The notes beneath the pieces were generated by a model, which was not told the origin of the DNA, did no database searches, and saw only the letters and a list, made by a program, of their open reading frames with translations. Below are positions 1,076 to 60,056 of a DNA stretch of 64,000 nucleotides, piece after piece. How positions within the stretch are numbered: position 1 is the first letter of the stretch; each line of letters opens with the position of its first letter. The position numbers and the translations under genes were made by a program. The DNA comes from Escherichia coli (GTDB lineage: Bacteria > Pseudomonadota > Gammaproteobacteria > Enterobacterales > Enterobacteriaceae), in NCBI RefSeq assembly GCF_041248615.1, contig NZ_CP158426.1; one strand, written 5' to 3'.

Positions 1076-1110
1076 GTCGTGATGTGAACTGACTCAGGAA
1101 CCTATCAGAT

Positions 1111-1171
1111 TGAGAGTTACCGTTCTACTATGAGGACCGAATCCTTATATAAAACACTGAGGTAACTCTCA
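1111..1171. repeat. Perfect 11-bp inverted repeat (tgagagttacc / ggtaactctca) with a ~39-nt spacer, between betA and ykgH
   Basis: Read directly from the sequence; the arms are exact reverse complements. Function unknown. Confidence 0.5.
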
Positions 1172-1287
1172 TGCTTCATATCCAGTATTCATGATGCTGG
1201 CTTTTTGCTGATATTTACCCTGAACATTCCTGATACAGACTATTAATACAATCTTATCTGCGACAGATTTTATTTTCTGGATATATT

Positions 1288-1838
1288 ATGAGTGAACAAA
1301 TCAAACAGGATATCGATCTGATTGAGATTTTATTTTATCTGAAGAAAAAGATTCGTGTTATCCTTTTTATTATAGCTATCTGTATGGCAATGGTGCTGTT
1401 GTTTCTGTATATCAATAAAGATAATATAAAAGTGACTTACAGTCTAAAAATAAACCAAACAACACCAGGCATACTTGTTAGCTGTGATAGCAATAATAAC
1501 TTTGCCTGTCAGACCACAATGACTGAAGATGTTATTCAGCGAATTACTACATTTTTTCACACCAGCCCAGATGTCAAGAACAGAGAAATAAAACTGGAAT
1601 GGTCAGGAGATAAGAGAGATTTACCAACTGCTGTACAAAAATGATATACCTGACCAGGAACTGGTCATTGTATCCGAACGGTGATGGCTGTGTCACTATA
1701 AGCTCACCAGAAATAAAAAATAAATATCCTGCTGCCATTTGCCTGGCTCTGGGATTTTTTCTAAGCATTGTGATTTCTGTAATGTTTTGCCTTGTCAAAA
1801 AAATGGTAGATGAATACCAACAAAACTCTGGGCAGTAA
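1288..1838 (+). pseudogene. ykgH: ykgH-like membrane protein, apparently split by a +1 frameshift at an A5 run (about 1637..1641)
   Basis: ORFs 1288..1644 and 1641..1838 each contain one hydrophobic helix; adding one A to the A5 run fuses them into a single ~184-aa product (...TAVQK-MIYLTRNW...). Could be a real frameshift, a sequencing error, or two short overlapping genes. Confidence 0.5.
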
Positions 1839-2080
1839 TAAACAGCATTCTGATAGAGAGTGCCTGTATATAGCTGAAGTGACAATGACTGGGAAGGGAA
1901 CCCGTTTTCAGGAATGGATGCCTGTCTTTTTCACTGTAAATATCCTGGCATTACTAATGCCAGGATATTTAAAGAAGAGGAGCATAACCATGACAGAACG
2001 GGGTTAAGTCAGGTTGTCCTTAACGCTATTCACAACCTCGTATGCCGACTTCAGGTTTATGTCCAGACTTCATATCTCTC

Positions 2081-9854: not shown

Positions 9855-10462
9855 TAGGTATGAACAATGAGTCTACGTTAAAACGTAACCTCAAATTAGT
9901 ATGTGGATTTTGATATCACTTATGCAAAAAATTCATTAATAATGTAGGACTGAAACCTCTCTATTTTTGGGGCAATGAAGCAGACGCTATCAGTGCTTTT
10001 GCCTTGGGACTTGCTGTTTTTGATACACTTAAGGCCCAGGACATAACGAAAATGTGCGATATTACAAAGAATTAACGGAGAATGTGATGATCAGGCAGAA
10101 GATTCTACAGCAGCTCCTGGAGTGGATTGAGTGCAATCTTGAGCACCCTATTTCAATCGAAGATATCGCACAGAAATCTGGCTACAGCAGACGCAACATC
10201 CAGCTTCTGTTCCGAAATTTCATGCATGTGCCTTTGGGAGAATACATTCGCAAACGAAGGCTTTGTCGTGCCGCCATTCTTGTCCGACTCACCGCGAAAT
10301 CTATGCTTGATATTGCACTCTCTTTACATTTTGACTCACAGCAGTCATTCAGCCGCGAATTTAAAAAGTTATTCGGCTGCTCTCCCCGTGAATACCGCCA
10401 CCGTGATTATTGGGATCTCGCAAATATCTTCCCTTCTTTTTTAATACGTCAACAGCAAAAGA

Positions 10463-10467
10463 CGGAG
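10463..10467. repeat. 5-bp target-site duplication (CGGAG), left copy
   Basis: Identical 5-mer immediately flanks both ends of IS2. Confidence 0.7.
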
Positions 10468-10478
10468 TGGATTTGCCC

Positions 10479-11384
10479 CTATATTTCCAGACACCTGTTA
10501 TCACTTAACCCATTACTGGCCTGCTGCCGCAGATATTCCCGTGGCGAGCGATAACCCAGTGCACTATGCGGATGCCATTCGTTATAATGCTCGAACGCCT
10601 CTGCAAGGTTCTTTGCTGCCGTTAACCCGTCTGGTTTAGGCATGATACTGATGTAGTCACGCTTTATCGTTTTCACGAAGCTCTCTGCTATGCCGTTACT
10701 CTCCGGACTCCGCACCGCCGTGTTCTTCGGTTCAAGCCCCAATATCCGGGCAAACTGCCGTGTTTCATTAGCCCGGTAGCATGAACCATTATCCGTCAGC
10801 CACTCTACTGGAGACGCCGGAAGCTCGTTGCCGAAGCGGCGTTCCACCGCTCCCAGCATGACGTCCTGTACTGTTTCACTGTCGAAGCCGCCCGTAGTGA
10901 CTGCCCAGTGCAGTGCCTCACGGTCACAGCAGTCCAGCGCGAACGTGACTCGCAGTTTTTCTCCGTTATCACAGCGGAACTCGAACCCGTCAGAGCACCA
11001 TCGTTGATTGCTTTCTTTCACGGCCACTTTGCCAGTATGTGCCCGTTTCGATGGCGGTACAGCGGTTTTTCGCTCAAGCAACAGCGCATTCTGGCGCATG
11101 ATCCGGTAAACACGTTTGGCATTGATCGCAGGCGTACCATCAAGTTCGGCCTGTCTGCGAAGCAGCGCCCATACCCGACGATAACCATACGTGGGCAGCT
11201 CTCCGATAACATGGTGTATACGGAGAAGCACATCCGTATCATCTGAGTGACGGCTGCGGCGACCATCTTTCCAGTCATCGGTTCGTCTGAGAATTACGTG
11301 CAACTGCGCACGCGACACCCGGAGACAACGGCTGACTAAGCTTACTCCCCATCCCCGGGCAATAAGGGCGCGTGCGCTATCCAC
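10479..11384 (-). CDS. insD: IS2 OrfB (InsD), DDE transposase catalytic component
   Basis: 301-aa ORF starting [15 protein letters not shown]...; overlaps insC as expected for programmed -1 frameshifting in this family. Confidence 0.9.
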
Positions 11385-11707
11385 TTTTTTGCACGCCCGT
11401 ATTCAACGGCTTCTTTAAGGAGTTCATTTTCCATCGTTTTTTTGCCGAGCAGGCGCTGGAGTTCTTTAATCTGCTTCATGGCAGCAGCAAGTTCAGAGGC
11501 AGGAACGACCTGCTCTCCTGCGGCCACAGCAGTAAGACTTCCCTCCTGGTATTGCTTGCGCCAGAGAAATAACTGGCTGGCTGCCACACCGTGTTGCCGG
11601 GCAACAAGGGAGACCTTCATTCCCGGTTCAAAACTCTGCTGAACAATAGCGATCTTTTCCTGTGTAGTACGCCGTCTGCGTTTCTCCGGTCCTAAGACAT
11701 CAATCAT
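11342..11707 (-). CDS. insC: IS2 OrfA (InsC), helix-turn-helix transposase component
   Basis: ORF 11342..11752 trimmed to [13 protein letters not shown] (121 aa). Confidence 0.9.
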
Positions 11708-11798
11708 CTGCTCTCCAATGACTAGTCTAAAAACTAGTATTAAGACTATCACTTATTTAAGTGATATTGGTTGTCTGGAGATTCATGGGGCCAGTCTA

Positions 11799-11803
11799 CG
11801 GAG
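11799..11803. repeat. 5-bp target-site duplication (CGGAG), right copy
   Basis: Matches the left copy at 10463..10467. Confidence 0.7.
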
Positions 11804-12404
11804 TGTAGATTAGTCAACTTTCCTGAGACACCTATTTTTGGCAATTCATTTAAATATGATATTGAAGTATCGAATAAATCACCGGATGAAGAAGTCAAAC
11901 TGCGACGTCATCATTTAGCCAGATGTATGAAGAATTTTAAGACGGATATCTATTTCGTCTCCACATTCGAACCGTCAACAAAATCGGTCGATTTGCTCAC
12001 AGTTGAAACTTTTGCCGGTACGGTATGCAAACAAACCGATTCAGAGATGTCGAAAGAGTGGACAATTAACCGAGGACTGTATGCCTCTTTCCGCTATGAA
12101 GGTGAGTGGGAGCACTACCCTGAATGGGCGCGAAACCTCTATCTGATGGAATTACCTGCCAGGGGGTTAGCCAGAGTGAACGGCAGTGATATTGAGCGAT
12201 TTTATTACAATGAAAACTTCGTCGAAATTGATAGCAATAACATTGTTTGCGAAATTTTTATCCCCGTTCGCCCGGTTTAGCCTGTAAATCCATCACATAA
12301 GATTTACCCTACCCTGCCACCGTCTAATCGGTACCAGGGTAGGTATTCAGTAAATAATGGCACTGCGCATGTCAACGCCATTATTATTTATTACATCGTC
12401 GTTT

Positions 12405-24001: not shown

Positions 24002-24103
24002 ATGAAAGAGAATAAAGTACAACAAATCAGTCATAAACTGATTAATATCGTTGTTTTTGTCGCAATTGTAGAATACGCCTATTTATTTCTCCATTTCTAT
24101 TAA
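24002..24103 (+). CDS. ykgR: Small hydrophobic protein, 33 aa (MKENKVQQISHKLINIVVFVAIVEYAYLFLHFY)
   Basis: Short ORF below the ORF-track cutoff, preceded by aggaag; one predicted transmembrane helix; a degenerate copy lies at about 43320..43392. Confidence 0.6.
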   Translation: MKENKVQQISHKLINIVVFVAIVEYAYLFLHFY

Positions 24104-24865: not shown

Positions 24866-24915
24866 TTCAAAATTCGACGAATTAACGATATTTGTCTGAT
24901 TAATAATCAGACCGG

Positions 24916-24955
24916 ATTAATGTTGGTGTATTTATTACACCAGCATTAATTTTCC
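24916..24955 (+). terminator. Rho-independent terminator candidate after ykgMO (attaatgttggtgta ... tacaccagcattaat, then T-run)
   Basis: Inverted repeat followed by TTTT, read from the sequence. Confidence 0.55.
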
Positions 24956-25879
24956 TGAGGATGTATCTTCCTGTTCATTTAAGGTCAACTGCCTGACGTT
25001 TCTCTCCGAATATTCCATTATATTAATGTTGACTTGTTGACCAGGTGCGCCCTGTATGCTGGCATCAACTCTCTTTTAGACTGAACACGCCACTCAGTTT
25101 CCTCCCTTTGCGACGCAGCCTGCATTTACACTCAAACGGTTAAGATGATAAATGTGGTAAATCTGTTGGTACTGACATAAAAACGTTTACGCCACAGGAA
25201 CGGCCTGATCCACCGGTAACCCCATCGCCGACGTTCGAGTGCCAGTTAGAGTAACGCGCACAGATGACTGAATGCAGTGCCCTGGCAAAGAGGCCATCGT
25301 TCCTGTGACAACTGGCAGTCTTCGTTTAACTTCACTTAATTTGGCTCTTAGGGGGCTTACCGGACAGATGACGTACTTACACCTGTTTAATTTTTCATCA
25401 CTTATTGGGATGAACACCCATAACCATTTTGTGCGGCATGTTAATCCATTAAAACACCTTACTGATTGGCAAATCATCTTTAATTATGACTCATGATAGT
25501 TTTATATTCTATTTCTTATCATTTAAACTTGTTTTTTTACTAGTCCATTACACAACACATTAAGACTATTCCTAACACCTCAGGGCAAAGTTCCTGGCTA
25601 ATATAAAATGCAAGTAAGAATTGAACGTTATATTGCCAATAACCTTATGAAACTGAATGTCTTTTTCTTCTTATCAAAAAAGCAATATTTTCATTTTTTG
25701 TAAATATTGACTTAACCATGGAATTCCTTTTCTGTTCACATATTGACACTCATCAGGAAAAAAACATAAATTTAAACCTAATCGAAATAATTAAAACTTA
25801 ATCTCGTTTAACCTATATTGATATGTGCTACGTATCTTATTTACTTCCGATTTACTAAAGAAACTGAATGTACCTGTAA

Positions 25880-50604: not shown

Positions 50605-52062
50605 GTGTCTGAACTGTCTCAATTATCTCCACAGCCGCTGTGGGATATTTTTGCCAAAATCTGTTCTATTCCTCACCCGTCCTATCATGAAGAGCAACTC
50701 GCTGAATACATTGTTGGTTGGGCAAAAGAGAAAGGTTTCCATGTCGAACGCGATCAGGTAGGTAATATCCTGATTCGTAAACCTGCTACCGCAGGTATGG
50801 AAAATCGTAAACCGGTCGTCTTGCAGGCCCACCTCGATATGGTGCCACAGAAAAATAACGACACCGTGCATGACTTCACTAAAGATCCTATCCAGCCTTA
50901 TATTGATGGCGAATGGGTTAAAGCGCGCGGCACCACGCTGGGTGCGGATAACGGCATTGGTATGGCGTCTGCGCTGGCGGTTCTGGCTGACGAAAACGTG
51001 GTTCACGGCCCGCTGGAAGTGCTGCTGACCATGACCGAAGAAGCCGGTATGGATGGTGCTTTTGGCTTACAGAGCAACTGGTTGCAGGCTGATATTCTGA
51101 TTAACACCGACTCCGAAGAGGAAGGTGAAATCTACATGGGTTGCGCGGGGGGTATCGACTTCACCTCCAACCTGCATTTAGATCGTGAAGCGGTTCCAGC
51201 TGGTTTTGAAACCTTCAAGTTAACCTTAAAAGGCCTGAAAGGCGGTCACTCCGGCGGTGAAATCCACGTTGGCCTGGGTAATGCCAACAAACTGCTGGTG
51301 CGCTTCCTGGCGGGTCATGCAGAAGAGCTGGACCTGCGCCTTATCGATTTCAACGGTGGCACACTGCGTAACGCCATCCCGCGTGAAGCCTTTGCGACCA
51401 TTGCTGTCGCAGCTGATAAAGTCGACGCCCTGAAATCTCTGGTGAATACCTATCAGGAGATCCTGAAAAACGAGCTGGCAGAGAAAGAGAAAAATCTGGC
51501 ATTGCTGCTGGACTCTGTTGCGAACGATAAAGCTGCCCTGATTGCGAAATCTCGCGATACCTTTATTCGTCTGCTGAACGCCACCCCGAACGGTGTGATC
51601 CGCAATTCCGATGTGGCAAAAGGTGTGGTGGAAACCTCCCTGAACGTCGGTGTGGTGACCATGACTGACAATAACGTAGAAATTCACTGCCTGATCCGTT
51701 CTCTGATCGACAGCGGTAAAGACTACGTGGTGAGCATGCTGGATTCGCTGGGTAAACTGGCTGGCGCGAAAACCGAAGCGAAAGGCGCATATCCTGGCTG
51801 GCAGCCGGACGCTAATTCTCCGGTGATGCATCTGGTACGTGAAACTTATCAGCGTCTGTTCAACAAGACGCCGAACATCCAGATTATCCACGCGGGCCTG
51901 GAATGTGGTCTGTTCAAAAAACCGTATCCGGAAATGGACATGGTTTCTATCGGGCCAACAATCACCGGTCCACACTCTCCGGATGAGCAAGTTCACATCG
52001 AAAGCGTAGGTCATTACTGGACACTGCTGACTGAGCTGCTGAAAGAAATTCCGGCGAAGTAA
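50605..52062 (+). CDS. pepD: Cytosolic non-specific dipeptidase (aminoacyl-histidine dipeptidase)
   Basis: 485-aa ORF of the M20 peptidase family. Confidence 0.95.
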   Translation: MSELSQLSPQPLWDIFAKICSIPHPSYHEEQLAEYIVGWAKEKGFHVERDQVGNILIRKPATAGMENRKPVVLQAHLDMVPQKNNDTVHDFTKDPIQPYIDGEWVKARGTTLGADNGIGMASALAVLADENVVHGPLEVLLTMTEEAGMDGAFGLQSNWLQADILINTDSEEEGEIYMGCAGGIDFTSNLHLDREAVPAGFETFKLTLKGLKGGHSGGEIHVGLGNANKLLVRFLAGHAEELDLRLIDFNGGTLRNAIPREAFATIAVAADKVDALKSLVNTYQEILKNELAEKEKNLALLLDSVANDKAALIAKSRDTFIRLLNATPNGVIRNSDVAKGVVETSLNVGVVTMTDNNVEIHCLIRSLIDSGKDYVVSMLDSLGKLAGAKTEAKGAYPGWQPDANSPVMHLVRETYQRLFNKTPNIQIIHAGLECGLFKKPYPEMDMVSIGPTITGPHSPDEQVHIESVGHYWTLLTELLKEIPAK

Positions 52063-52118
52063 TTATTTGATTTGCTGCCGGATGGCGTTTAATCGCCTTC
52101 CGGCAGTTTCATCCTTCA

Positions 52119-52673
52119 TTATCCTTCGATAAAAGCCATCCCTGTAAATGTCCGTCTCGGGTTGCCACGTTCAATCTGGTGATGGAACATTCGCCGCCGC
52201 GATTTCAGCACCGCGCTATTTTCCTGTTGCTGTTGTTCCAGCGTCCAGGCAATCAGCAATCGCGCCAGCCGCTTGTTAGCATGCCCAGAAACAAGTTTTT
52301 GCGCCCATGATGAGGCCGATACGGACTCGGACAAATCCACTGAATAGTGCCGCACCAACTTTCGCTTAATGCCCATGCGTTATCGCCATCCAGAGAAATC
52401 AGCGCCGAACGCAGCGTGTCAGAGTAGCGGCCCGTTTCTGTTTCCAGCACCGTTACCGCGACGTCTTGCCGGGTAAAAACGACCAACAGAGAATAACGCT
52501 GCGCCAATCGGGTAGCCGCGTCCGGGGTGTAAATCTGGCATCCCTACTACGCGCTGCATGTTGGGTAAATTTGCCGTGGTGTGTAATTGTTGAATCGCTA
52601 AACTCTCGATCCACAGGTCATCAGATGCGATGGTAAATACCGCATCGGATAAGGGACGAATATATTTGCCCAT
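52119..52673 (-). pseudogene. prfH: Decayed RtcB-like ligase / release-factor-H (prfH) module: an RtcB N-terminal stub followed by frame-disrupted prfH pieces
   Basis: ORF 52419..52673 begins like RtcB (MGKYIRPLSDAVF...[10 protein letters not shown]) then breaks off; ORFs 52253..52507 and 52119..52376 carry release-factor-like segments in two different frames. Confidence 0.6.
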
Positions 52674-54125: not shown

Positions 54126-55181
54126 TCATAATCCCAGCACCAGTTGTCTTTCCATTTGAGGGTCAAGCAACGTCACATGCAGCCCCACCAGTCGCACACC
54201 GCGCCCGCCGCGGCGTTCATCCCAGGTTTTACGCGCGGTGGCGATTAGATCAGCTTTATTCAGCCGCGGCCAGACGTGCTCCTGAGTAGTTTGCTGAAAA
54301 TCGTCGAACTTTAATTTCACCCCCTGGCGAGCAATCAGTAAATCAGGTTTTACTTTTGCCAGACGACGTTCAAGTTCCGGATACAGCCGCTCGATAATCG
54401 CTTCACATTCAGACCAGTGATGAATATCTTCCGCCATCGTGCGTTCCACGCCGACAGATTTTCGCAACCGTTCGCTGTTAACGTCGCGCTCGTCAATCCC
54501 CTGACTACGCTCCCACAAAATGCGGCCAAATTTGCCAAAACGTTTGAGCAGAGTCACCAGATCACACTTTTGCACATCACCGCAGGTCCGCAGCCCCATC
54601 GCTTCCAGTTTTGCCGCCGAGACTTTGCCGACGCCGGGGATTTTTGCCAGCGGTAAGGTTTGTAAAAATGTCGGAACTTCTGCCGGCGTAATCACAAACT
54701 GGCCGTTGGGTTTATTCATGTCGGAGGCGATTTTGGCGAGAAACTTTACTGGTGCCACGCCCGCAGACGCCGTCAGTTGCAGCTCGTTGAAGATTGTCTG
54801 GCGGATTTCCTGGGCGATGAGGGTCGCAGAACCGTGGCAATGGACGCTATCAGTGACATCGAGATAGGCTTCATCCAGTGACAACGGTTCAATACGCGAG
54901 GTGTAGCGCGAGAAGATTTCACGGATATGATTTGAGGCTTCTTTGTAGGCGTCAAAGCGCCCCGGAAGCAAGGTGAGATGTGGGCATAATTTGAGCGCCA
55001 TCCCTGTCGGCATAGCGCTACGTACGCCAAATTTACGCGCGGGATAATTGGCGGTGCTGATCACCCCCCGACGTTCGCGGCTGCCGCCAATAGCAATAGG
55101 GATATCGCGCAGGGCGGGATTGTCGCGCATCTCCACTGCGGCGAAAAAGCAGTCCATATCCACATGAATGATTTTACGCAT
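54126..55181 (-). CDS. dinB: DNA polymerase IV (Y-family translesion polymerase)
   Basis: 351-aa ORF starting [17 protein letters not shown]. Confidence 0.95.
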
Positions 55182-55197
55182 TGCTCACCTCTCAACA

Positions 55198-55213
55198 CTG
55201 GTAAAGTATACAG
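55198..55213. promoter_or_regulatory. LexA box (CTG-N10-CAG: ctggtaaagtatacag) in the dinB promoter
   Basis: Palindromic SOS-box-like sequence about 17-32 bp upstream of the dinB start codon. Confidence 0.75.
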
Positions 55214-55251
55214 TGATTTCAGGGTTTGAGAAATGCGTAAAGATTCAGCAT

Positions 55252-56175
55252 CTAGCGCGTTCGCTGCGAAAGCACCTGCTGCTTATCCAGCTTTTGCACC
55301 AGCGGCTGCACCACTTTATCCCCATGCTGACCAAAGTATTGATACAGCGTATCGGACGCACTTTTGGTCAGCACCATAATCTCAATGCGTCGGTTGCCCG
55401 CGCTTTGCGGATTTTTGGCATCCAGCAGCATCTGGTCCGCCATTGCGCTTACCTGCATCACTTTATCTTCCGGCATTCCAGCCTCTTCCAGCACCCGACG
55501 GGCCGAAAGCGCGCGATCGCCCGAAAGGTTCCAGTTGTTGTAGATATTGTTTTTGTAGGCCATCGCATCGGTATGCCCGGTGATGATGATCTTATTGTCG
55601 AGCGAATCAAAAACCGGCGCTAACTCCACCAGCAAAGTTTTAAAGAACGGCATAATCTGCGCGCTGCCGCGTTCAAACATATTGCGGTTCTGGTCATCTT
55701 TAATCAGCACGCGCAGTCCCTGGGGAACAATCTCCATCTCCAGATTCGCTTCCATATGCGCATCACGGGCGATGGTGTTGATACTGGTTGCCAGCTCACC
55801 AAGCTCAGTAGCGGATTTCTTCTTCAGCAGCGCCGTTTTCTCATTGACGTCACGCGCTTTTTTCTCCGTCTCTTCCGGCACCGCCACGGTGGCAGGTTTT
55901 GGCGGATGAGACGGGCTGATTTTATTTAACGGCGACAACCCGCCGCCATTGAAAATCGACTGCCCGTGCAGCGCGGCGATAATGCTTTCACGCTCGGATT
56001 TACTGACGCTGTTGACAATCCACAGCGTCATAAACAGCGCCATCATTGCCAAAGTAAAGTCGGCGAACGCCACCTTCCACGCCCCGCCGTGGTGCCCGGC
56101 ATGATTCTTTTTGATCTGCCGCCGGACGATGGTGGTTTTTGCCCCACGCTCGCGGCGGTTGCCCGTCTTTCTCAT
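55252..56175 (-). CDS. lafU: Flag-2 lateral-flagellar stator protein, MotB-like
   Basis: ORF 55252..56208 trimmed to MRKTGNRRERG...; the start overlaps the lafT stop; MotB-like N-terminal helix and C-terminal OmpA-like domain. Confidence 0.8.
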   Translation of the reverse strand: MRKTGNRRERGAKTTIVRRQIKKNHAGHHGGAWKVAFADFTLAMMALFMTLWIVNSVSKSERESIIAALHGQSIFNGGGLSPLNKISPSHPPKPATVAVPEETEKKARDVNEKTALLKKKSATELGELATSINTIARDAHMEANLEMEIVPQGLRVLIKDDQNRNMFERGSAQIMPFFKTLLVELAPVFDSLDNKIIITGHTDAMAYKNNIYNNWNLSGDRALSARRVLEEAGMPEDKVMQVSAMADQMLLDAKNPQSAGNRRIEIMVLTKSASDTLYQYFGQHGDKVVQPLVQKLDKQQVLSQRTR

Positions 56176-56177
56176 GC

Positions 56178-57041
56178 TTATTCTTGCTCCAGCATCGCAT
56201 TCACCCACGCGTCGAGGTTGGCGAAGGTCGGTTTGGACGCCAGATGCAGCAGCTTACGCCCGGCGTCCACTGCCAGCAGCGTCGGTTTGCCGCCTGCCTG
56301 CGCCACCAGCACGGTGCGCACGCATTCCAGCAAAGAATGTTCTGCCCGCGCCTGTTGTTCCATGGCGTTGGCGAGCGGGTCCATCAGGCAGTAGCAGATA
56401 AAGACGCCTAAAAACGTCCCCACCAGCGCTGCCGCCACTTTCAGGCCAATCAGTGCGATAGAGCCGTCAATCGACTGCATGGTGATGATGATGCCCAACA
56501 CCGCCGCACAAATGCCAAACCCCGGCATCGCTTCGGCGGTACGTTGCAGCGAGCGCGACGGCGTTAGCAGCGACTCTTCCGCGGTGTCCAGTTCCTGATC
56601 GAGAATGCCTTCCAGTTCATGGGCGTCGATTTTACCCATCGCCATCAGGCGAAAGTTATCGGCAATAAAGGTCACCAGCCGCTTCTGGGTTAACACCAGC
56701 GGGTATTTCTGGAAAATGGTGCTCTCTTCCGGTTGCTCGATATGCTGATCCAGCATGCGCAGGCCGCCGTTTTGCACCATTTCGAGCAACTCATACAGGC
56801 ACATTAATAGCTGACGCTGAAACTCCGGCCCGAGCTGTTTTTTACTGATCACGCCTTTAATTTGATGAGCAATCTCTTTCAGCACATGTTTCGGATTACC
56901 AATAATCATCGCCCCGAAGCCCGCGCCTAAAATAATGATCATTTCCGCCGGTTGCCAGATAGCCACTAATTGCCCGCCCGCTTCAAAATAACCGCCAAAT
57001 ACGCAGCCGAGCACCACCAGTAAACCTAATATTTTTTGCAT
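56178..57041 (-). CDS. lafT: Flag-2 stator protein, MotA-like
   Basis: 287-aa four-helix membrane ORF. Confidence 0.8.
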   Translation of the reverse strand: MQKILGLLVVLGCVFGGYFEAGGQLVAIWQPAEMIIILGAGFGAMIIGNPKHVLKEIAHQIKGVISKKQLGPEFQRQLLMCLYELLEMVQNGGLRMLDQHIEQPEESTIFQKYPLVLTQKRLVTFIADNFRLMAMGKIDAHELEGILDQELDTAEESLLTPSRSLQRTAEAMPGFGICAAVLGIIITMQSIDGSIALIGLKVAAALVGTFLGVFICYCLMDPLANAMEQQARAEHSLLECVRTVLVAQAGGKPTLLAVDAGRKLLHLASKPTFANLDAWVNAMLEQE

Positions 57042-57053
57042 GATTTCTTCACT

Positions 57054-57773
57054 TTAATTCGGATAGACAAAATCACGAATTTTCTGCGCGATCTGTTTAT
57101 TCAGTTGACAAATACGGGCTTCGGTTAGCCCTAATACCAGCGCAATCTCTTTGAGATTCATCTCATGCTGGTAATACATGGAGAGGATCAGTTGCTCTTT
57201 TTCGCTTAATAGTGAAAGTGCGTGTTGCAGCATTTGCTGGGTGACAAACTGATCTTCCAGTTCCCTGCCAGCAAGTGGAATGCCTTGCCCTTCGCCGTTC
57301 AGCAGTTCGTCAAGGCTGGCGAGCGTTTCCGCCCCTTCCAGTTGCTGATATTCGAGATAATCTTCATGCGAGATCCCTTCCACGGCCAGTTCTGACCACT
57401 CAGGCTCGTGCCCCAGTTTTTTACGCGTTTCGCGAATCAGGTCTTTCATCTGATGATATTTCTGTCGCAGCTGGCGCGGTCGCCAGTCGAGAGCGCGCAG
57501 CTCATCCAGGATCGCGCCGCGAATACGGTGCACGGCATAGCCCGCAAAACCTTCGTCCGGCAGTCCGTAGCGGCGAATGGCATTAAGCAGCCCCATTAAC
57601 GCCGTTTGTTCCATATCCTGACGATCAATAATGCAATTACACTGCGGGGCAAGTTGCCGCACAACTTTACGCACCAGTGGTAAATAGGCCTGCAAGTAGT
57701 GGCTCTCCTGCTGCGGGGTTAATACCGGCGCGGCAGCAAATTCTTCTGACTCGAATAATACGTCCTGTAGCAT
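57054..57773 (-). CDS. lafS: Flag-2 flagellar sigma factor (FliA / sigma-28 family)
   Basis: 239-aa ORF with sigma-70-family regions 2 and 4. Confidence 0.8.
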   Translation of the reverse strand: MLQDVLFESEEFAAAPVLTPQQESHYLQAYLPLVRKVVRQLAPQCNCIIDRQDMEQTALMGLLNAIRRYGLPDEGFAGYAVHRIRGAILDELRALDWRPRQLRQKYHQMKDLIRETRKKLGHEPEWSELAVEGISHEDYLEYQQLEGAETLASLDELLNGEGQGIPLAGRELEDQFVTQQMLQHALSLLSEKEQLILSMYYQHEMNLKEIALVLGLTEARICQLNKQIAQKIRDFVYPN

Positions 57774-57792
57774 GTTTATATCCGCCTGGTGA

Positions 57793-58260
57793 TTACTGGA
57801 AGACCACTTTTTTCACCAGCAAATCCTTATATGGTGCGCTCATTTTGCGACGTTGAAGGTCTTTCTTTAACGCATCCGAAATCAGTTTGCGGATGGCAGA
57901 TATTTTCATGCCGCGCAAATCTTCAAATTTCATTTCCGTCAGGCATTCAACCGCAATACTTTGATACAGCGGCTCCTGATGTTTTATTTTTTCCGCTTCT
58001 TTGTCACTGGCGACCACCATCACTAATTCCGCCGACAAATAATGGTCCGCGCCGTTGTTGTCATGCAGCGTGACAATGGTTTCCGGCAACGTCACAAATA
58101 CGCTTTTGCTTTCATCCAGGGTTTCCACCGTTTCCGTCTGCGCGGCGGCAGTCGGTTTTCCTTTTCCGGCATAATGATGCCAGACACCCCATCCAGCTCC
58201 GGCCCCCACCACCAACGCCAGAACGGCGCTGACCACGCCCGCCACCACGATTTTCTTCAT
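57793..58260 (-). CDS. lafF: Flag-2 FliL-like basal-body-associated protein
   Basis: 155-aa ORF with a single N-terminal transmembrane helix. Confidence 0.7.
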   Translation of the reverse strand: MKKIVVAGVVSAVLALVVGAGAGWGVWHHYAGKGKPTAAAQTETVETLDESKSVFVTLPETIVTLHDNNGADHYLSAELVMVVASDKEAEKIKHQEPLYQSIAVECLTEMKFEDLRGMKISAIRKLISDALKKDLQRRKMSAPYKDLLVKKVVFQ

Positions 58261-58267
58261 ATTGCCT

Positions 58268-59329
58268 TTACACTTTGATCAAAACGGATTCGTTCTGTTG
58301 AAATTGAGGCGCATCATCAAGCTGTAAGGCGGCACTCACCTCTTCCTGCTGATGGCCCGACTGTTGTTGTTGCTGCGACTGCCCTTCGGAGGAAACCTGT
58401 ACGTTCACCTCCATAAAATTTTGCGCCGTCAGATGCTGGCGGAGATCGTCGCTAAACTGTTGTAACGCGCGGCAAACTTCACTTTGGTTCGCGCCGATGT
58501 GCACCATCAGTTTGCCGTTATCGAGTTGTACGACGATCTCGAGCTTGCCAAGCGACGGTGGATCGAGACGGATGGTGGAGATCTGCTGTTGTTTGTTGAG
58601 CTGAAAGTGGATCTGATCTTTCAACAGCGTCGTCAGTTTTTCGCCCAGTTCGTCCATTGAAAGCGTGGCTGGTTTGGCGACAATCTCCTGATGCTGGCTG
58701 ACCAGCTCCGGCGTCTTAACCTGCAACACCGCACGCGCAATAACCGGTTCGCTGTCCGGCACTTTTTCCGTTTTACGCTCGACCTGTGGGCGCGCGGTCA
58801 CACGGGTTAGTTCAGGTTTCGGGCGAGCGGGCTGTGTTGAGACGCGCGGCTGCGTCGGCGCAATGGCATGTAAATCTTCACTGGCGTAAGTCGCCAGCCT
58901 GGCCTGCTGTTCGGGTTTCGCCTGCGGCAACTGACCGATCAGCTCCTGCAACTGCGGCGGCAACGGCGTGAGTTCCTGCTGTTGCGTCGGGCGTTGCGGC
59001 GCTTTTTGCACCACCGCTTTCGTCACTTGCTGGATAACCGGCGATGTTGCGACGTTTCGCGGCTGCGGCGTGTCCTGATGCGGCGCGGTAGGTTGCGGAA
59101 GTAACAGCGCCATTAGCGCCTGCATCGCCACCGGATCGTTCTCCTGCGGGCGCGTCGCCTGTTGCTGACTGGTTTTAGCGCTATGAACGCGCTCCGCCAC
59201 CGCCGCGACCGCCATTTTCGGCAGGGTAAACGCGGGCGCGTTTTCACCGCTCACCGGCGGTAAAATACCCGTTTTCAGCGACGCCGTTTCCACAAGCGTT
59301 CCGAGCGTGGCAAGCAATGCCGGATTCAT
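58268..59329 (-). CDS. lafE: Flag-2 hook-length control protein (FliK-like)
   Basis: 353-aa Pro/Gln-rich ORF. Confidence 0.7.
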   Translation of the reverse strand: MNPALLATLGTLVETASLKTGILPPVSGENAPAFTLPKMAVAAVAERVHSAKTSQQQATRPQENDPVAMQALMALLLPQPTAPHQDTPQPRNVATSPVIQQVTKAVVQKAPQRPTQQQELTPLPPQLQELIGQLPQAKPEQQARLATYASEDLHAIAPTQPRVSTQPARPKPELTRVTARPQVERKTEKVPDSEPVIARAVLQVKTPELVSQHQEIVAKPATLSMDELGEKLTTLLKDQIHFQLNKQQQISTIRLDPPSLGKLEIVVQLDNGKLMVHIGANQSEVCRALQQFSDDLRQHLTAQNFMEVNVQVSSEGQSQQQQQSGHQQEEVSAALQLDDAPQFQQNESVLIKV

Positions 59330-59637
59330 GACTTCTCCGAAAGTAAATTAACAATTGAGTAGGCCAGTACGCCTTCCTGATGCCGCTGATGCTGTTCCAT
59401 ACGCGCCTTCAACACTTCTGCACGCTGCTCGCGCCGTTTAATCAGGGCATTAAACGCGCCGTACAGCTGCGCCTTCACCGCACACAACTGCGCCGCGTCG
59501 GTTTCCGCCGCCACGTAATCGTGAAACTGGCGCATCAACTGCTGATGCAGTGCCGGAAGCCGTCGCCAGCGTTGCTTGTCGAGGGCTTCGTTCATCGCCT
59601 CAACCAGTGCGAAAAGTTGCCTGCGTTGTTTTTCCAT
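59326..59637 (-). CDS. lafD: Flag-2 FliT-like export chaperone
   Basis: 103-aa helical ORF located between the FliS-like and FliK-like genes. Confidence 0.6.
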   Translation of the reverse strand: MEKQRRQLFALVEAMNEALDKQRWRRLPALHQQLMRQFHDYVAAETDAAQLCAVKAQLYGAFNALIKRREQRAEVLKARMEQHQRHQEGVLAYSIVNLLSEKS

Positions 59638-59641
59638 CGTC

Positions 59642-60034
59642 TTAACCCAGCTTGCCCGAAAGCCCTTCCCAGCCTTCGCGCAGGTTACTTAAGATCAGCA
59701 TCACTTCATCGATTTTCTCTGCCGACAGTTCGCCGCTGGCTTCATACAATCGGTAAACGCAGTGGTCATAGAGGCGCGAAAGGTTGACCACCAGCTCGCC
59801 GCCGGTTTCAAACTCCAGCGAACTGGTGAGCGCATTGAGAATGTCGATGCATTTATTGATGCTCTGGGCTTTCTTCTCGAAACGCCGCCCTTCAATATGG
59901 CTTTTGGCGCGTTCCAGCTCGTCCATCAGGCCAGAAAACAGCACCAGCACCAGTTCCAGAGGCGATGCCGCCGCGGTACGCGCCGCGAGATCGATCTCTT
60001 TATATTGCGAATAGCCGTCCTGTACATGGTACAT
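59642..60034 (-). CDS. lafC: Flag-2 flagellin-specific chaperone (FliS-like)
   Basis: 130-aa ORF. Confidence 0.8.
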   Translation of the reverse strand: MYHVQDGYSQYKEIDLAARTAAASPLELVLVLFSGLMDELERAKSHIEGRRFEKKAQSINKCIDILNALTSSLEFETGGELVVNLSRLYDHCVYRLYEASGELSAEKIDEVMLILSNLREGWEGLSGKLG

Positions 60035-60056
60035 CTTTAGGGATATTCCTTCTGAG

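What the first reader, a model, noticed from the sequence alone, without database searches (positions are those of the whole stretch)
1288..1838. ykgH split by a homopolymer frameshift
One extra A in the A5 run at 1637..1641 would fuse two ORFs into a single two-helix membrane protein. This may be phase-variable expression, a recent pseudogene, or a sequencing error in a homopolymer.
Basis: seen in the sequence. Interest (0 to 1): 0.3.

Follow-up and report, generated by a model that had tools for sequence, protein, structure and literature searches.

The report
ykgH pseudogene made by 118-bp deletion
The split gene is real, but it was broken by loss of a 118-base internal block rather than by a slip in the run of five A's; it is an ordinary, already-annotated dead copy of the non-essential E. 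coli membrane-protein gene ykgH, inherited by many strains.

Summary
The two ORFs (1288..1644, 118 aa; 1641..1838, 65 aa) and the A5 run at 1637..1641 exist as described, and adding one A would fuse them. The proposed cause is wrong. Intact ykgH is 669 bp (222 aa) and carries the same A5 run. The window lacks 118 bp (K-12 gene nt 347-464, codons 116-155), with a unique junction at 1633|1634 and no microhomology. Since 118 = 3x39+1, the frame shifts, and the A5 run merely lies 3 bases downstream.

It is not a sequencing error. The window is E. coli NRZ14408, and the same junction with A5 occurs in 4 of 5,426 complete genomes. Ten of ten independent assemblies checked also have it, and the junction-derived 118-aa product was seen on 636 public contigs.

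It is not phase variation. A6 occurs in 0 genomes, and A4 in 1 that is already decayed.

RefSeq already marks the locus as a frameshifted pseudogene. The deleted block holds W129, one of the family's two invariant residues, and most of a helical hairpin, so a +1 "repair" would probably not restore function.

Side result: intact YkgH appears to be a miniature polysaccharide co-polymerase (Wzz/Wzc/KpsE-like) fold. No held paper links ykgH to Wzz. Low interest overall.

The parts
1288..1838 (+). ykgH pseudogene (551 bp; the intact gene is 669 bp / 222 aa)
   Evidence: Synteny betA-ykgH-ykgG and 96-98% identity to annotated ykgH. RefSeq annotates exactly 1288..1838 of this record as 'hypothetical protein, pseudo, frameshifted'.
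1633..1634 (+). Deletion junction: 118 bp (K-12 ykgH nt 347-464, codon 116 position 2 to codon 155 position 2, residues E116-Y155) are missing between these two bases
   Evidence: Alignment to K-12 and strain 2c3 ykgH. The breakpoint is unique with 0 bp of microhomology. The junction 40-mer occurs in 4 of 5,426 complete genomes and in 10 of 10 independent loci checked.
1288..1644 (+). 5' remnant ORF, 118 aa: TM1 plus part of the periplasmic domain, ending in the junction-derived out-of-frame residues V-Q-K-stop
   Evidence: The exact product was seen on 636 public contigs.
1641..1838 (+). 3' remnant ORF, 65 aa, starting at the native internal Met158 codon: end of the return helix, two short strands and TM2. 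There is no Shine-Dalgarno sequence upstream
   Evidence: The upstream 25 nt, GAGATTTACCAACTGCTGTACAAAA, lack a purine-rich ribosome-binding site.
1637..1641 (+).
   Evidence: A5 in K-12 and 2c3 intact genes. The exact A5 60-mer occurs in 3,932 genomes, A6 in 0, and A4 in 1.
1937..1971 (.). Perfect 16-bp-stem hairpin between convergent ykgH and ykgG, probably a bidirectional terminator. It is unaffected by the deletion
   Evidence: RNA fold -28.9 kcal/mol, z = -8.1 against shuffles.

Best explanation
Window 1288..1838 is a dead copy of ykgH. An ancestor of this strain's lineage lost 118 bp from the middle of the gene (codons 116-155). Because 118 is one more than a multiple of three, translation from the normal start runs out of frame after Ala115, adds Val-Gln-Lys and stops at 1642-1644. 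The downstream 65-aa ORF is simply the old reading frame resuming at the native Met158 codon. The A5 run is an unchanged bystander 3 bases past the junction. The allele is stably inherited and has moved onto several haplotype backgrounds by recombination. The gene is dispensable, probably poorly expressed, and broken in unrelated ways in other E. coli, so this is neutral gene decay and not a regulatory switch. Shown: the deletion, its junction, its distribution and the stability of the tract. Inferred: loss of function and neutrality.
For: Deletion and junction:
- The alignment shows a single 118-bp gap with a unique breakpoint, and A5 in both the intact and the deleted alleles.

Polarity (a deletion here, not an insertion elsewhere):
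- Relatives at 21-31% identity contain the segment, including invariant W129.

Real and heritable:
- The junction is present in 4 complete genomes from Germany, Spain, the USA and the UK.
- The exact junction-derived 118-aa product is on 636 contigs, and the index lists it in 1,111 blocks of the collection.
- All 10 loci inspected have the same junction and A5.

Not a single clone:
- The upstream 1.2 kb is identical or differs by 1 SNP, but the downstream flanks differ by 0, 5-7, 34 or 41-42 SNPs per ~1.3-1.4 kb. One haplotype changes inside the pseudogene, from position 1665.

Tract stability:
-.

Loss of function:
- The AlphaFold model (pLDDT 84.5) places the deleted residues in the H109-143 / H153-167 helical hairpin.
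- W129 is one of only two invariant residues in the family.

Dispensability and recurrent decay:
- Other lesions include an IS1 insertion, a 168-bp deletion plus A4, a frameshift at another A-run and a truncation.
- About 265 of 5,426 genomes gave no match to the query.
- ykgH is used as an integration site, and a reporter integrated there was expressed about 4-fold lower than at lacZ, which the authors suggest may reflect silencing (PMC8497626).

Existing annotation:
- RefSeq already annotates it as a frameshifted pseudogene.
Against: - There are no expression or protein data for this allele. The ATGA stop/start overlap could in principle allow some reinitiation on the 65-aa ORF.
- Divergence of the pseudogene from the nearest intact allele (1.8%) is no higher than in the flanks (1.0-4.8%). 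There is therefore no positive signature of relaxed selection, though only about 10 sites inform this.
- The molecular mechanism of the deletion is unknown. There is no microhomology at the junction, and a nearby 8-bp near-repeat, GAG(A/C)TTTA, is not in register with the breakpoints.
Confidence: 0.93

Rival explanations
1. Phase-variable (contingency) expression: the A5 tract slips between A5 and A6 and so switches a fused 183-aa protein on and off.
For: Adding one A does restore a single ORF. ykgH is AT-rich with many short homopolymers. Homopolymer frameshifts do occur in ykgH in other strains: A4 in FDAARGOS_1285, and a frameshift at the A6 run in P0036.
Against: - The tract has the ancestral length. 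The frame is broken by the 118-bp deletion.
- A6 occurs in 0 of about 5,047 genomes, and all 10 deletion-carrying loci checked have A5.
- No frame-restored protein was seen among the cluster members listed and fetched.
- From general knowledge of contingency loci, five bases is shorter than the mononucleotide tracts that switch at useful rates.
- The 'ON' product would lack invariant W129 and the helical hairpin.
Confidence: 0.01
2. Sequencing or assembly artefact in a homopolymer, or an assembly collapse that removed 118 bp, in this one record.
For: No sequencing details could be obtained for NRZ14408, because the genome paper (PMC5365728) is not held. Indel errors at homopolymers are a known artefact of long-read assemblies (general knowledge).
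Against: The identical junction and A5 occur in four complete genomes from different laboratories, in NCBI draft assemblies and in metagenome scaffolds. The exact junction-derived product is on 636 contigs. The missing 118 bp are unique coding sequence and not a repeat.
Confidence: 0.01
3. A functional split gene: the two fragments (TM1 fragment and TM2 fragment) are both translated through termination-reinitiation at the ATGA overlap, and they retain or gain a function.
For: There is an ATGA stop/start overlap at a native Met codon. Both ORFs are intact in all 10 carriers checked, and the allele has persisted long enough to recombine onto several backgrounds.
Against: - There is no Shine-Dalgarno sequence before ORF2.
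- The conserved core (W129 and the helical hairpin) is absent from both fragments.
- One carrier haplotype has a first-codon-position change in ORF2, at 1734.
- ykgH is broken in many unrelated ways elsewhere, which fits dispensability.
- Intact ORFs in a short, young pseudogene are expected by default.
Confidence: 0.04

Closest known systems
E. coli K-12 ykgH (b0310; UniProt YKGH_ECOLI, 222 aa, uncharacterised predicted inner-membrane protein)
   Same: Same chromosomal position between betA and ykgG. About 96-98% DNA identity outside the deletion, with the same start, stop and A5 run.
   Different: It lacks nt 347-464 (codons 116-155) and is out of frame afterwards, so no 222-aa product is made.
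Ordinary lineage-specific pseudogenes made by internal deletion (bacterial gene decay), as flagged 'frameshifted' by NCBI PGAP
   Same: A single disabling indel in a non-essential accessory gene, vertically inherited and annotated as pseudo in all four complete genomes.
   Different: Nothing notable, except that the allele is fairly widespread (636 contigs) and sits on several recombinant haplotypes.
Homopolymer contingency loci (slipped-strand phase variation, e.g. poly-G/poly-C tracts in Neisseria, Haemophilus and Campylobacter)
   Same: A mononucleotide run lies next to the point where the frame breaks, and a 1-base change would alter the frame.
   Different: The tract is only 5 bases, has the ancestral length and does not vary among thousands of genomes. 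The frame is broken by a deletion elsewhere.
Polysaccharide co-polymerases (PCP: Wzz/WzzE/FepE, Wzc, KpsE), which the intact YkgH protein resembles
   Same: - Topology: TM1, a periplasmic alpha/beta base with a helical hairpin, then TM2.
- The top Foldseek PDB hits are all PCPs: Wzc E 1e-4, prob 1.0, TMq 0.46-0.52, then WzzE and KpsE.
- Two divergent YkgH relatives pass Pfam's GNVR threshold.
- The family profile's best PDB sequence hits are WzzB 6rbg and FepE.
   Different: - At 222 aa it is much smaller than Wzz (~330 aa) or Wzc (~720 aa).
- YkgH itself is below the Pfam thresholds for Wzz (18.5 vs 25.5 bits) and GNVR (10.6 vs 27.7).
- It is not in a polysaccharide gene cluster; its neighbours are bet and lut genes.
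- No kinase domain, oligomer state or function has been tested.

Membership tests
ykgH orthologue (E. coli) | Syntenic position between betA and ykgG-ykgF-ykgE | tested here: met
   ORFs and RefSeq annotation of the window and of comparison genomes.
ykgH orthologue (E. coli) | High nucleotide identity to annotated ykgH over the whole retained length | tested here: met
   96-98% identity in more than 4,800 genomes, matched in 2 pieces flanking the 118-bp gap.
ykgH orthologue (E. coli) | Intact single ORF of about 222 aa | tested here: not met
   The gene is 551 bp and split into 118-aa and 65-aa ORFs, so it is a pseudogene of the family and not a functional member.
Homopolymer phase-variation (contingency) locus | Tract length differs from the in-frame ancestral length and is the cause of the frame change | tested here: not met
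   A5 in the intact K-12 and 2c3 genes and in the window alike. The frame change comes from the 118-bp deletion.
Homopolymer phase-variation (contingency) locus | Tract length is polymorphic among closely related strains or populations | tested here: not met
   The exact A5 60-mer occurs in 3,932 genomes, A6 in 0 and A4 in 1. All 10 deletion carriers have A5. Variation within a single culture was not testable.
Homopolymer phase-variation (contingency) locus | Both frame states give a meaningful ON/OFF product | tested here: not met
   The hypothetical ON product (183 aa) lacks residues 116-155, including invariant W129 and most of the helical hairpin.
Sequencing or assembly artefact | The feature is confined to one assembly or one sequencing technology | tested here: not met
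   The same junction occurs in complete, draft and metagenome assemblies from several countries.
Polysaccharide co-polymerase (PCP) superfamily, for the intact YkgH protein | Two-TM topology with a periplasmic alpha/beta base and a helical hairpin (PCP fold) | tested here: met
   AlphaFold2 model with pLDDT 84.5. The Foldseek top 34 PDB hits are all Wzc, WzzE or KpsE, with best E 1.1e-4 and TMq up to 0.52.
Polysaccharide co-polymerase (PCP) superfamily, for the intact YkgH protein | Significant match to the Pfam Wzz (PF02706) or GNVR (PF13807) models | tested here: inconclusive
   YkgH is itself below threshold: Wzz 18.5/25.5 bits and GNVR 10.6/27.7 bits. Homologues P0063 and P0089 pass GNVR at 33.2 and 31.4 bits, so the link is only transitive.
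Polysaccharide co-polymerase (PCP) superfamily, for the intact YkgH protein | Works with a Wzy polymerase or an ABC exporter, and is encoded in a polysaccharide cluster | tested here: not met
   Its neighbours are betA and ykgG/F/E (lut). The contexts of distant homologues were uninformative. Biochemical function is not testable here.

The most novel reading that the evidence does not exclude
The deletion allele is not simply dead. The 118-aa TM1 fragment, possibly together with a reinitiated 65-aa TM2 fragment from the ATGA overlap, might persist as a truncated mini-PCP-like membrane peptide with residual or dominant-negative activity on envelope polysaccharide handling, and this could explain why the allele is widespread. 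Separately, intact YkgH may be the smallest known polysaccharide co-polymerase-fold protein, an orphan 'mini-Wzz' of unknown partner.
Probability: 0.04. Interest if true: 0.45.

Novelty: already known. Interest (0 to 1): 0.08.

Why it matters
For the finding itself, very little. It is a routine, already-annotated pseudogene of a dispensable gene, and the correction (a 118-bp deletion instead of a homopolymer slip) mainly prevents a false phase-variation call. It is also a useful caution: a homopolymer beside a frame break in an AT-rich gene can be a bystander, and comparison with an intact orthologue settles the matter at once. The junction 40-mer could serve as a lineage marker.

The only part with wider value is the side result that intact YkgH has a miniature PCP (Wzz/Wzc/KpsE-like) fold. 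That gives a testable hypothesis for an uncharacterised E. coli K-12 y-gene.

Tried and rejected
- Microhomology or direct repeats at the deletion ends. There are none at the junction. An 8-bp near-repeat, GAG(A/C)TTTA, lies 10 bp left of the left breakpoint and abuts the right one, but slippage between its copies would delete 128 bp and does not give the observed product. The deletion mechanism is left open.
- A frame-restored allele (deletion + A6). The junction search found only 4 exact hits. The cluster members of about 183-184 aa turned out to be an N-terminally partial full-length protein (P0004) and a different frameshift (P0036).
- The lone A4 genome as evidence of tract instability. 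It also carries an independent 168-bp deletion, so the 1-bp loss lies in an already dead gene. This corrects my earlier notebook entry.
- Relaxed selection on the pseudogene. Its divergence from the nearest intact allele is similar to the flanks, and there are too few sites to conclude anything.
- Genomic context of distant YkgH homologues as a clue to function. The contigs are short metagenome pieces and uninformative.
- NCBIfam and direct PDB sequence searches with YkgH alone found nothing significant.
- The NRZ14408 genome paper (PMC5365728), wanted for sequence type and sequencing method, is not held.
- The apparent 634 downstream 'SNPs' in L018 are an offset artefact of my ungapped comparison in an indel-rich assembly, not real divergence.

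Full report
**What is in the sequence.** Window 1288..1838 holds two overlapping ORFs on the + strand. The first is 1288..1644 (118 aa, stop TGA at 1642-1644) and the second is 1641..1838 (65 aa, ATG at 1641-1643), so they overlap as ATGA. An A5 run lies at 1637..1641. Inserting one A there fuses the ORFs into a 183-aa product with an N-terminal and a C-terminal hydrophobic helix. The neighbours are betA upstream and ykgG/ykgF/ykgE (LutC/LutB/LutA-like) convergent downstream, so the locus is E. coli ykgH.

**What really broke the gene.** The 701-bp region matches more than 4,800 complete E. coli genomes at 96-98% identity, but in two pieces spanning about 819 bp. Intact ykgH is 669 bp / 222 aa in a K-12 derivative and 666 bp in strain 2c3.
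- Alignment to these shows one gap of exactly 118 bp in the window, between positions 1633 and 1634.
- In K-12 gene coordinates the missing block is nt 347-464, running from codon 116 position 2 to codon 155 position 2 (residues E116-Y155).
- The breakpoint is unique and has no microhomology.
- Because 118 = 3x39+1, the reading frame shifts. After Ala115 the ribosome reads Val-Gln-Lys-stop.
- The 65-aa ORF is the original frame resuming at the native Met158 codon.
- The A-run is A5 in the intact genes as well. It is an unchanged bystander 3 bases past the junction.
- The gene is 35% GC and contains eight homopolymer runs of at least 5 bases, the longest an A7 at 1797-1803. Finding one next to the frame break is not remarkable.

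**Deletion, not insertion.** YkgH relatives at only 21-31% identity contain the segment. It includes W129, one of only two invariant residues in the family alignment. The long form is therefore ancestral.

**Not an artefact.** The window is E. coli NRZ14408 (NZ_LT599825.1, 100% identical over 25 kb).
- A 40-mer centred on the junction occurs in 4 of 5,426 complete genomes: NRZ14408, isolate 362 (Madrid), KE55 (Dallas, urine) and AF40 (UK, rectal swab).
- The exact 118-aa product has a C-terminus created by the junction. It has been seen on 636 public contigs, and the index lists it in 1,111 blocks of the collection.
- In all 10 loci whose DNA I inspected, the junction 40-mer and A5 are identical. 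These include NCBI draft genomes and metagenome scaffolds.

**Not a single recent clone.** The 1.2 kb upstream is identical, or differs by 1 SNP, in every carrier. The downstream flank differs by 0, 5-7, 34 or 41-42 SNPs per ~1.3-1.4 kb. In one haplotype (L016) the differences begin inside the pseudogene, at 1665. The allele has therefore been carried onto different backgrounds by recombination. Two substitutions have arisen within the pseudogene among the four complete-genome carriers: 1727, a synonymous third-position change in the old frame, and 1734, a first-position change.

**Not phase variation.**
- A 60-mer spanning the run is exactly A5 in 3,932 genomes. The sampled variants all span 60 bases, so they are substitutions.
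- An A6 version is exact in 0 genomes.
- An A4 version is exact in 1 genome, FDAARGOS_1285. That gene also carries an independent 168-bp deletion, so it was already decaying.
- No deletion-plus-A6 allele was found.
- A +1 'repair' would still lack residues 116-155.

**What was lost.** YkgH is a very small family. Only 46 of 1.84 billion representative proteins match at E <= 1e-3. Most of those are E. coli fragments, and about eight are divergent full-length relatives.
- An AlphaFold2 model from this shallow alignment is confident (mean pLDDT 84.5). It shows TM1 (22-42), a small alpha/beta base, a helical hairpin (H109-143, H153-167), two short strands and TM2 (188-220). The deletion removes most of the hairpin.
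- Foldseek against the PDB returns only polysaccharide co-polymerases at the top: Wzc (E 1.1e-4, prob 1.0, TMq 0.46-0.52), then WzzE and KpsE.
- YkgH itself is below the Pfam thresholds for Wzz and GNVR. Two relatives, P0063 and P0089, pass the GNVR threshold.
- The family profile's best PDB sequence hits are WzzB 6rbg (E 0.0086) and FepE.
- Intact YkgH thus appears to be a miniature PCP-fold protein. Membership is supported by fold and by transitive sequence links. It is not supported by direct threshold-passing matches or by genomic context.
- No paper in the held library mentions both ykgH and Wzz.

**Dispensability.** ykgH is broken in unrelated ways in other strains.
- The lesions seen are an IS1 insertion, the 168-bp deletion plus A4, a frameshift at the A6 run giving ...SSPEIKK* (P0036) and a truncation after ...HNGR (P0006).
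- About 265 of 5,426 genomes gave no match to the 701-bp query.
- The literature treats ykgH as a predicted inner-membrane protein of unknown function (bioRxiv 10.1101/2024.11.06.622226) and uses it as a chromosomal integration site. A reporter integrated there was expressed about 4-fold lower than at the nearby lacZ locus, which the authors suggest may reflect silencing by protein occupancy (PMC8497626).
- The gene sits in a 30-39% GC pocket between flanks of 50-57% GC.

**Verdict.** This is a real feature with a mistaken mechanism. It is a lineage-specific ykgH pseudogene created by a 118-bp internal deletion, and RefSeq already annotates it as 'frameshifted' in all four complete genomes. 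It is ordinary gene decay. The residual uncertainty is whether either fragment is expressed. The ATGA overlap would allow reinitiation, but there is no Shine-Dalgarno sequence before the second ORF, and the conserved core is absent from both fragments.

Noticed in passing
window 1288-1838 (intact form: L001:1589-2257): Intact YkgH, an uncharacterised K-12 y-gene product, models confidently (pLDDT 84.5) as a miniature polysaccharide co-polymerase fold. The top PDB fold hits are all Wzc, WzzE or KpsE. Two distant relatives pass Pfam's GNVR threshold. The family is tiny (46 hits among 1.84 billion representatives). No held paper links ykgH with Wzz.
   Followed up: partly
window 1937-1971: A perfect 16-bp-stem hairpin (AAAUAUCCUGGCAUUA/CUA/AUGCCAGGAUAUUU; -28.9 kcal/mol, z = -8.1) lies between convergent ykgH and ykgG and is probably a bidirectional terminator. 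A RIL-seq study proposed an sRNA from the ykgH 3' UTR in K-12 that northern blots did not confirm (PMC8175672). If that sRNA is real it would lie here, untouched by the deletion.
   Followed up: partly
other genomes: NZ_CP124339 (H12), NZ_CP070152 (L008), proteins P0036 and P0006: ykgH is inactivated independently in other E. coli: by an IS1 insertion, by a 168-bp deletion plus A5->A4, by a frameshift at the A6 run (window equivalent 1715-1720), and by truncation after ...HNGR. This is recurrent decay of a dispensable gene.
   Followed up: partly
window 1076-2080 compared with L005, L016 and L019: Carriers of the deletion share an identical betA-side haplotype but have at least four different ykgG-side haplotypes. 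One breakpoint lies inside the pseudogene, between 1641 and 1665. The ykgH-ykgG interval therefore looks like a recombination boundary.
   Followed up: partly
window 10087-12280: An IS3-family element (transposase at 10479-11707, minus strand) splits a regulator gene with a helix-turn-helix N-terminus and a GyrI-like C-terminus into two annotated partial pseudogenes. The same insertion is present in strain 21AH004.
   Followed up: no
window 24900-25125; 39636-40763; 51999-52553: RefSeq annotates further pseudogenes in the window: ykgL (frameshifted), an MFS transporter with an internal stop, and prfH/rtcB remnants.
   Followed up: no
window ~55100-64000: A lateral-flagella (Flag-2) gene cluster is present next to dinB-yafNOP: lafU, motA, a FliA-like sigma factor, fliL, fliK, fliS, fliD and lafA. 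From my own knowledge, this cluster is largely deleted in K-12.
   Followed up: no
window 43324-43392 and 24002-24103: Besides the intact ykgR small-membrane-protein gene, a second partial ykgR copy and a partial LysR-domain fragment lie near tRNA-Thr (44031-44106). This suggests an old duplication or rearrangement scar beside the tRNA.
   Followed up: no
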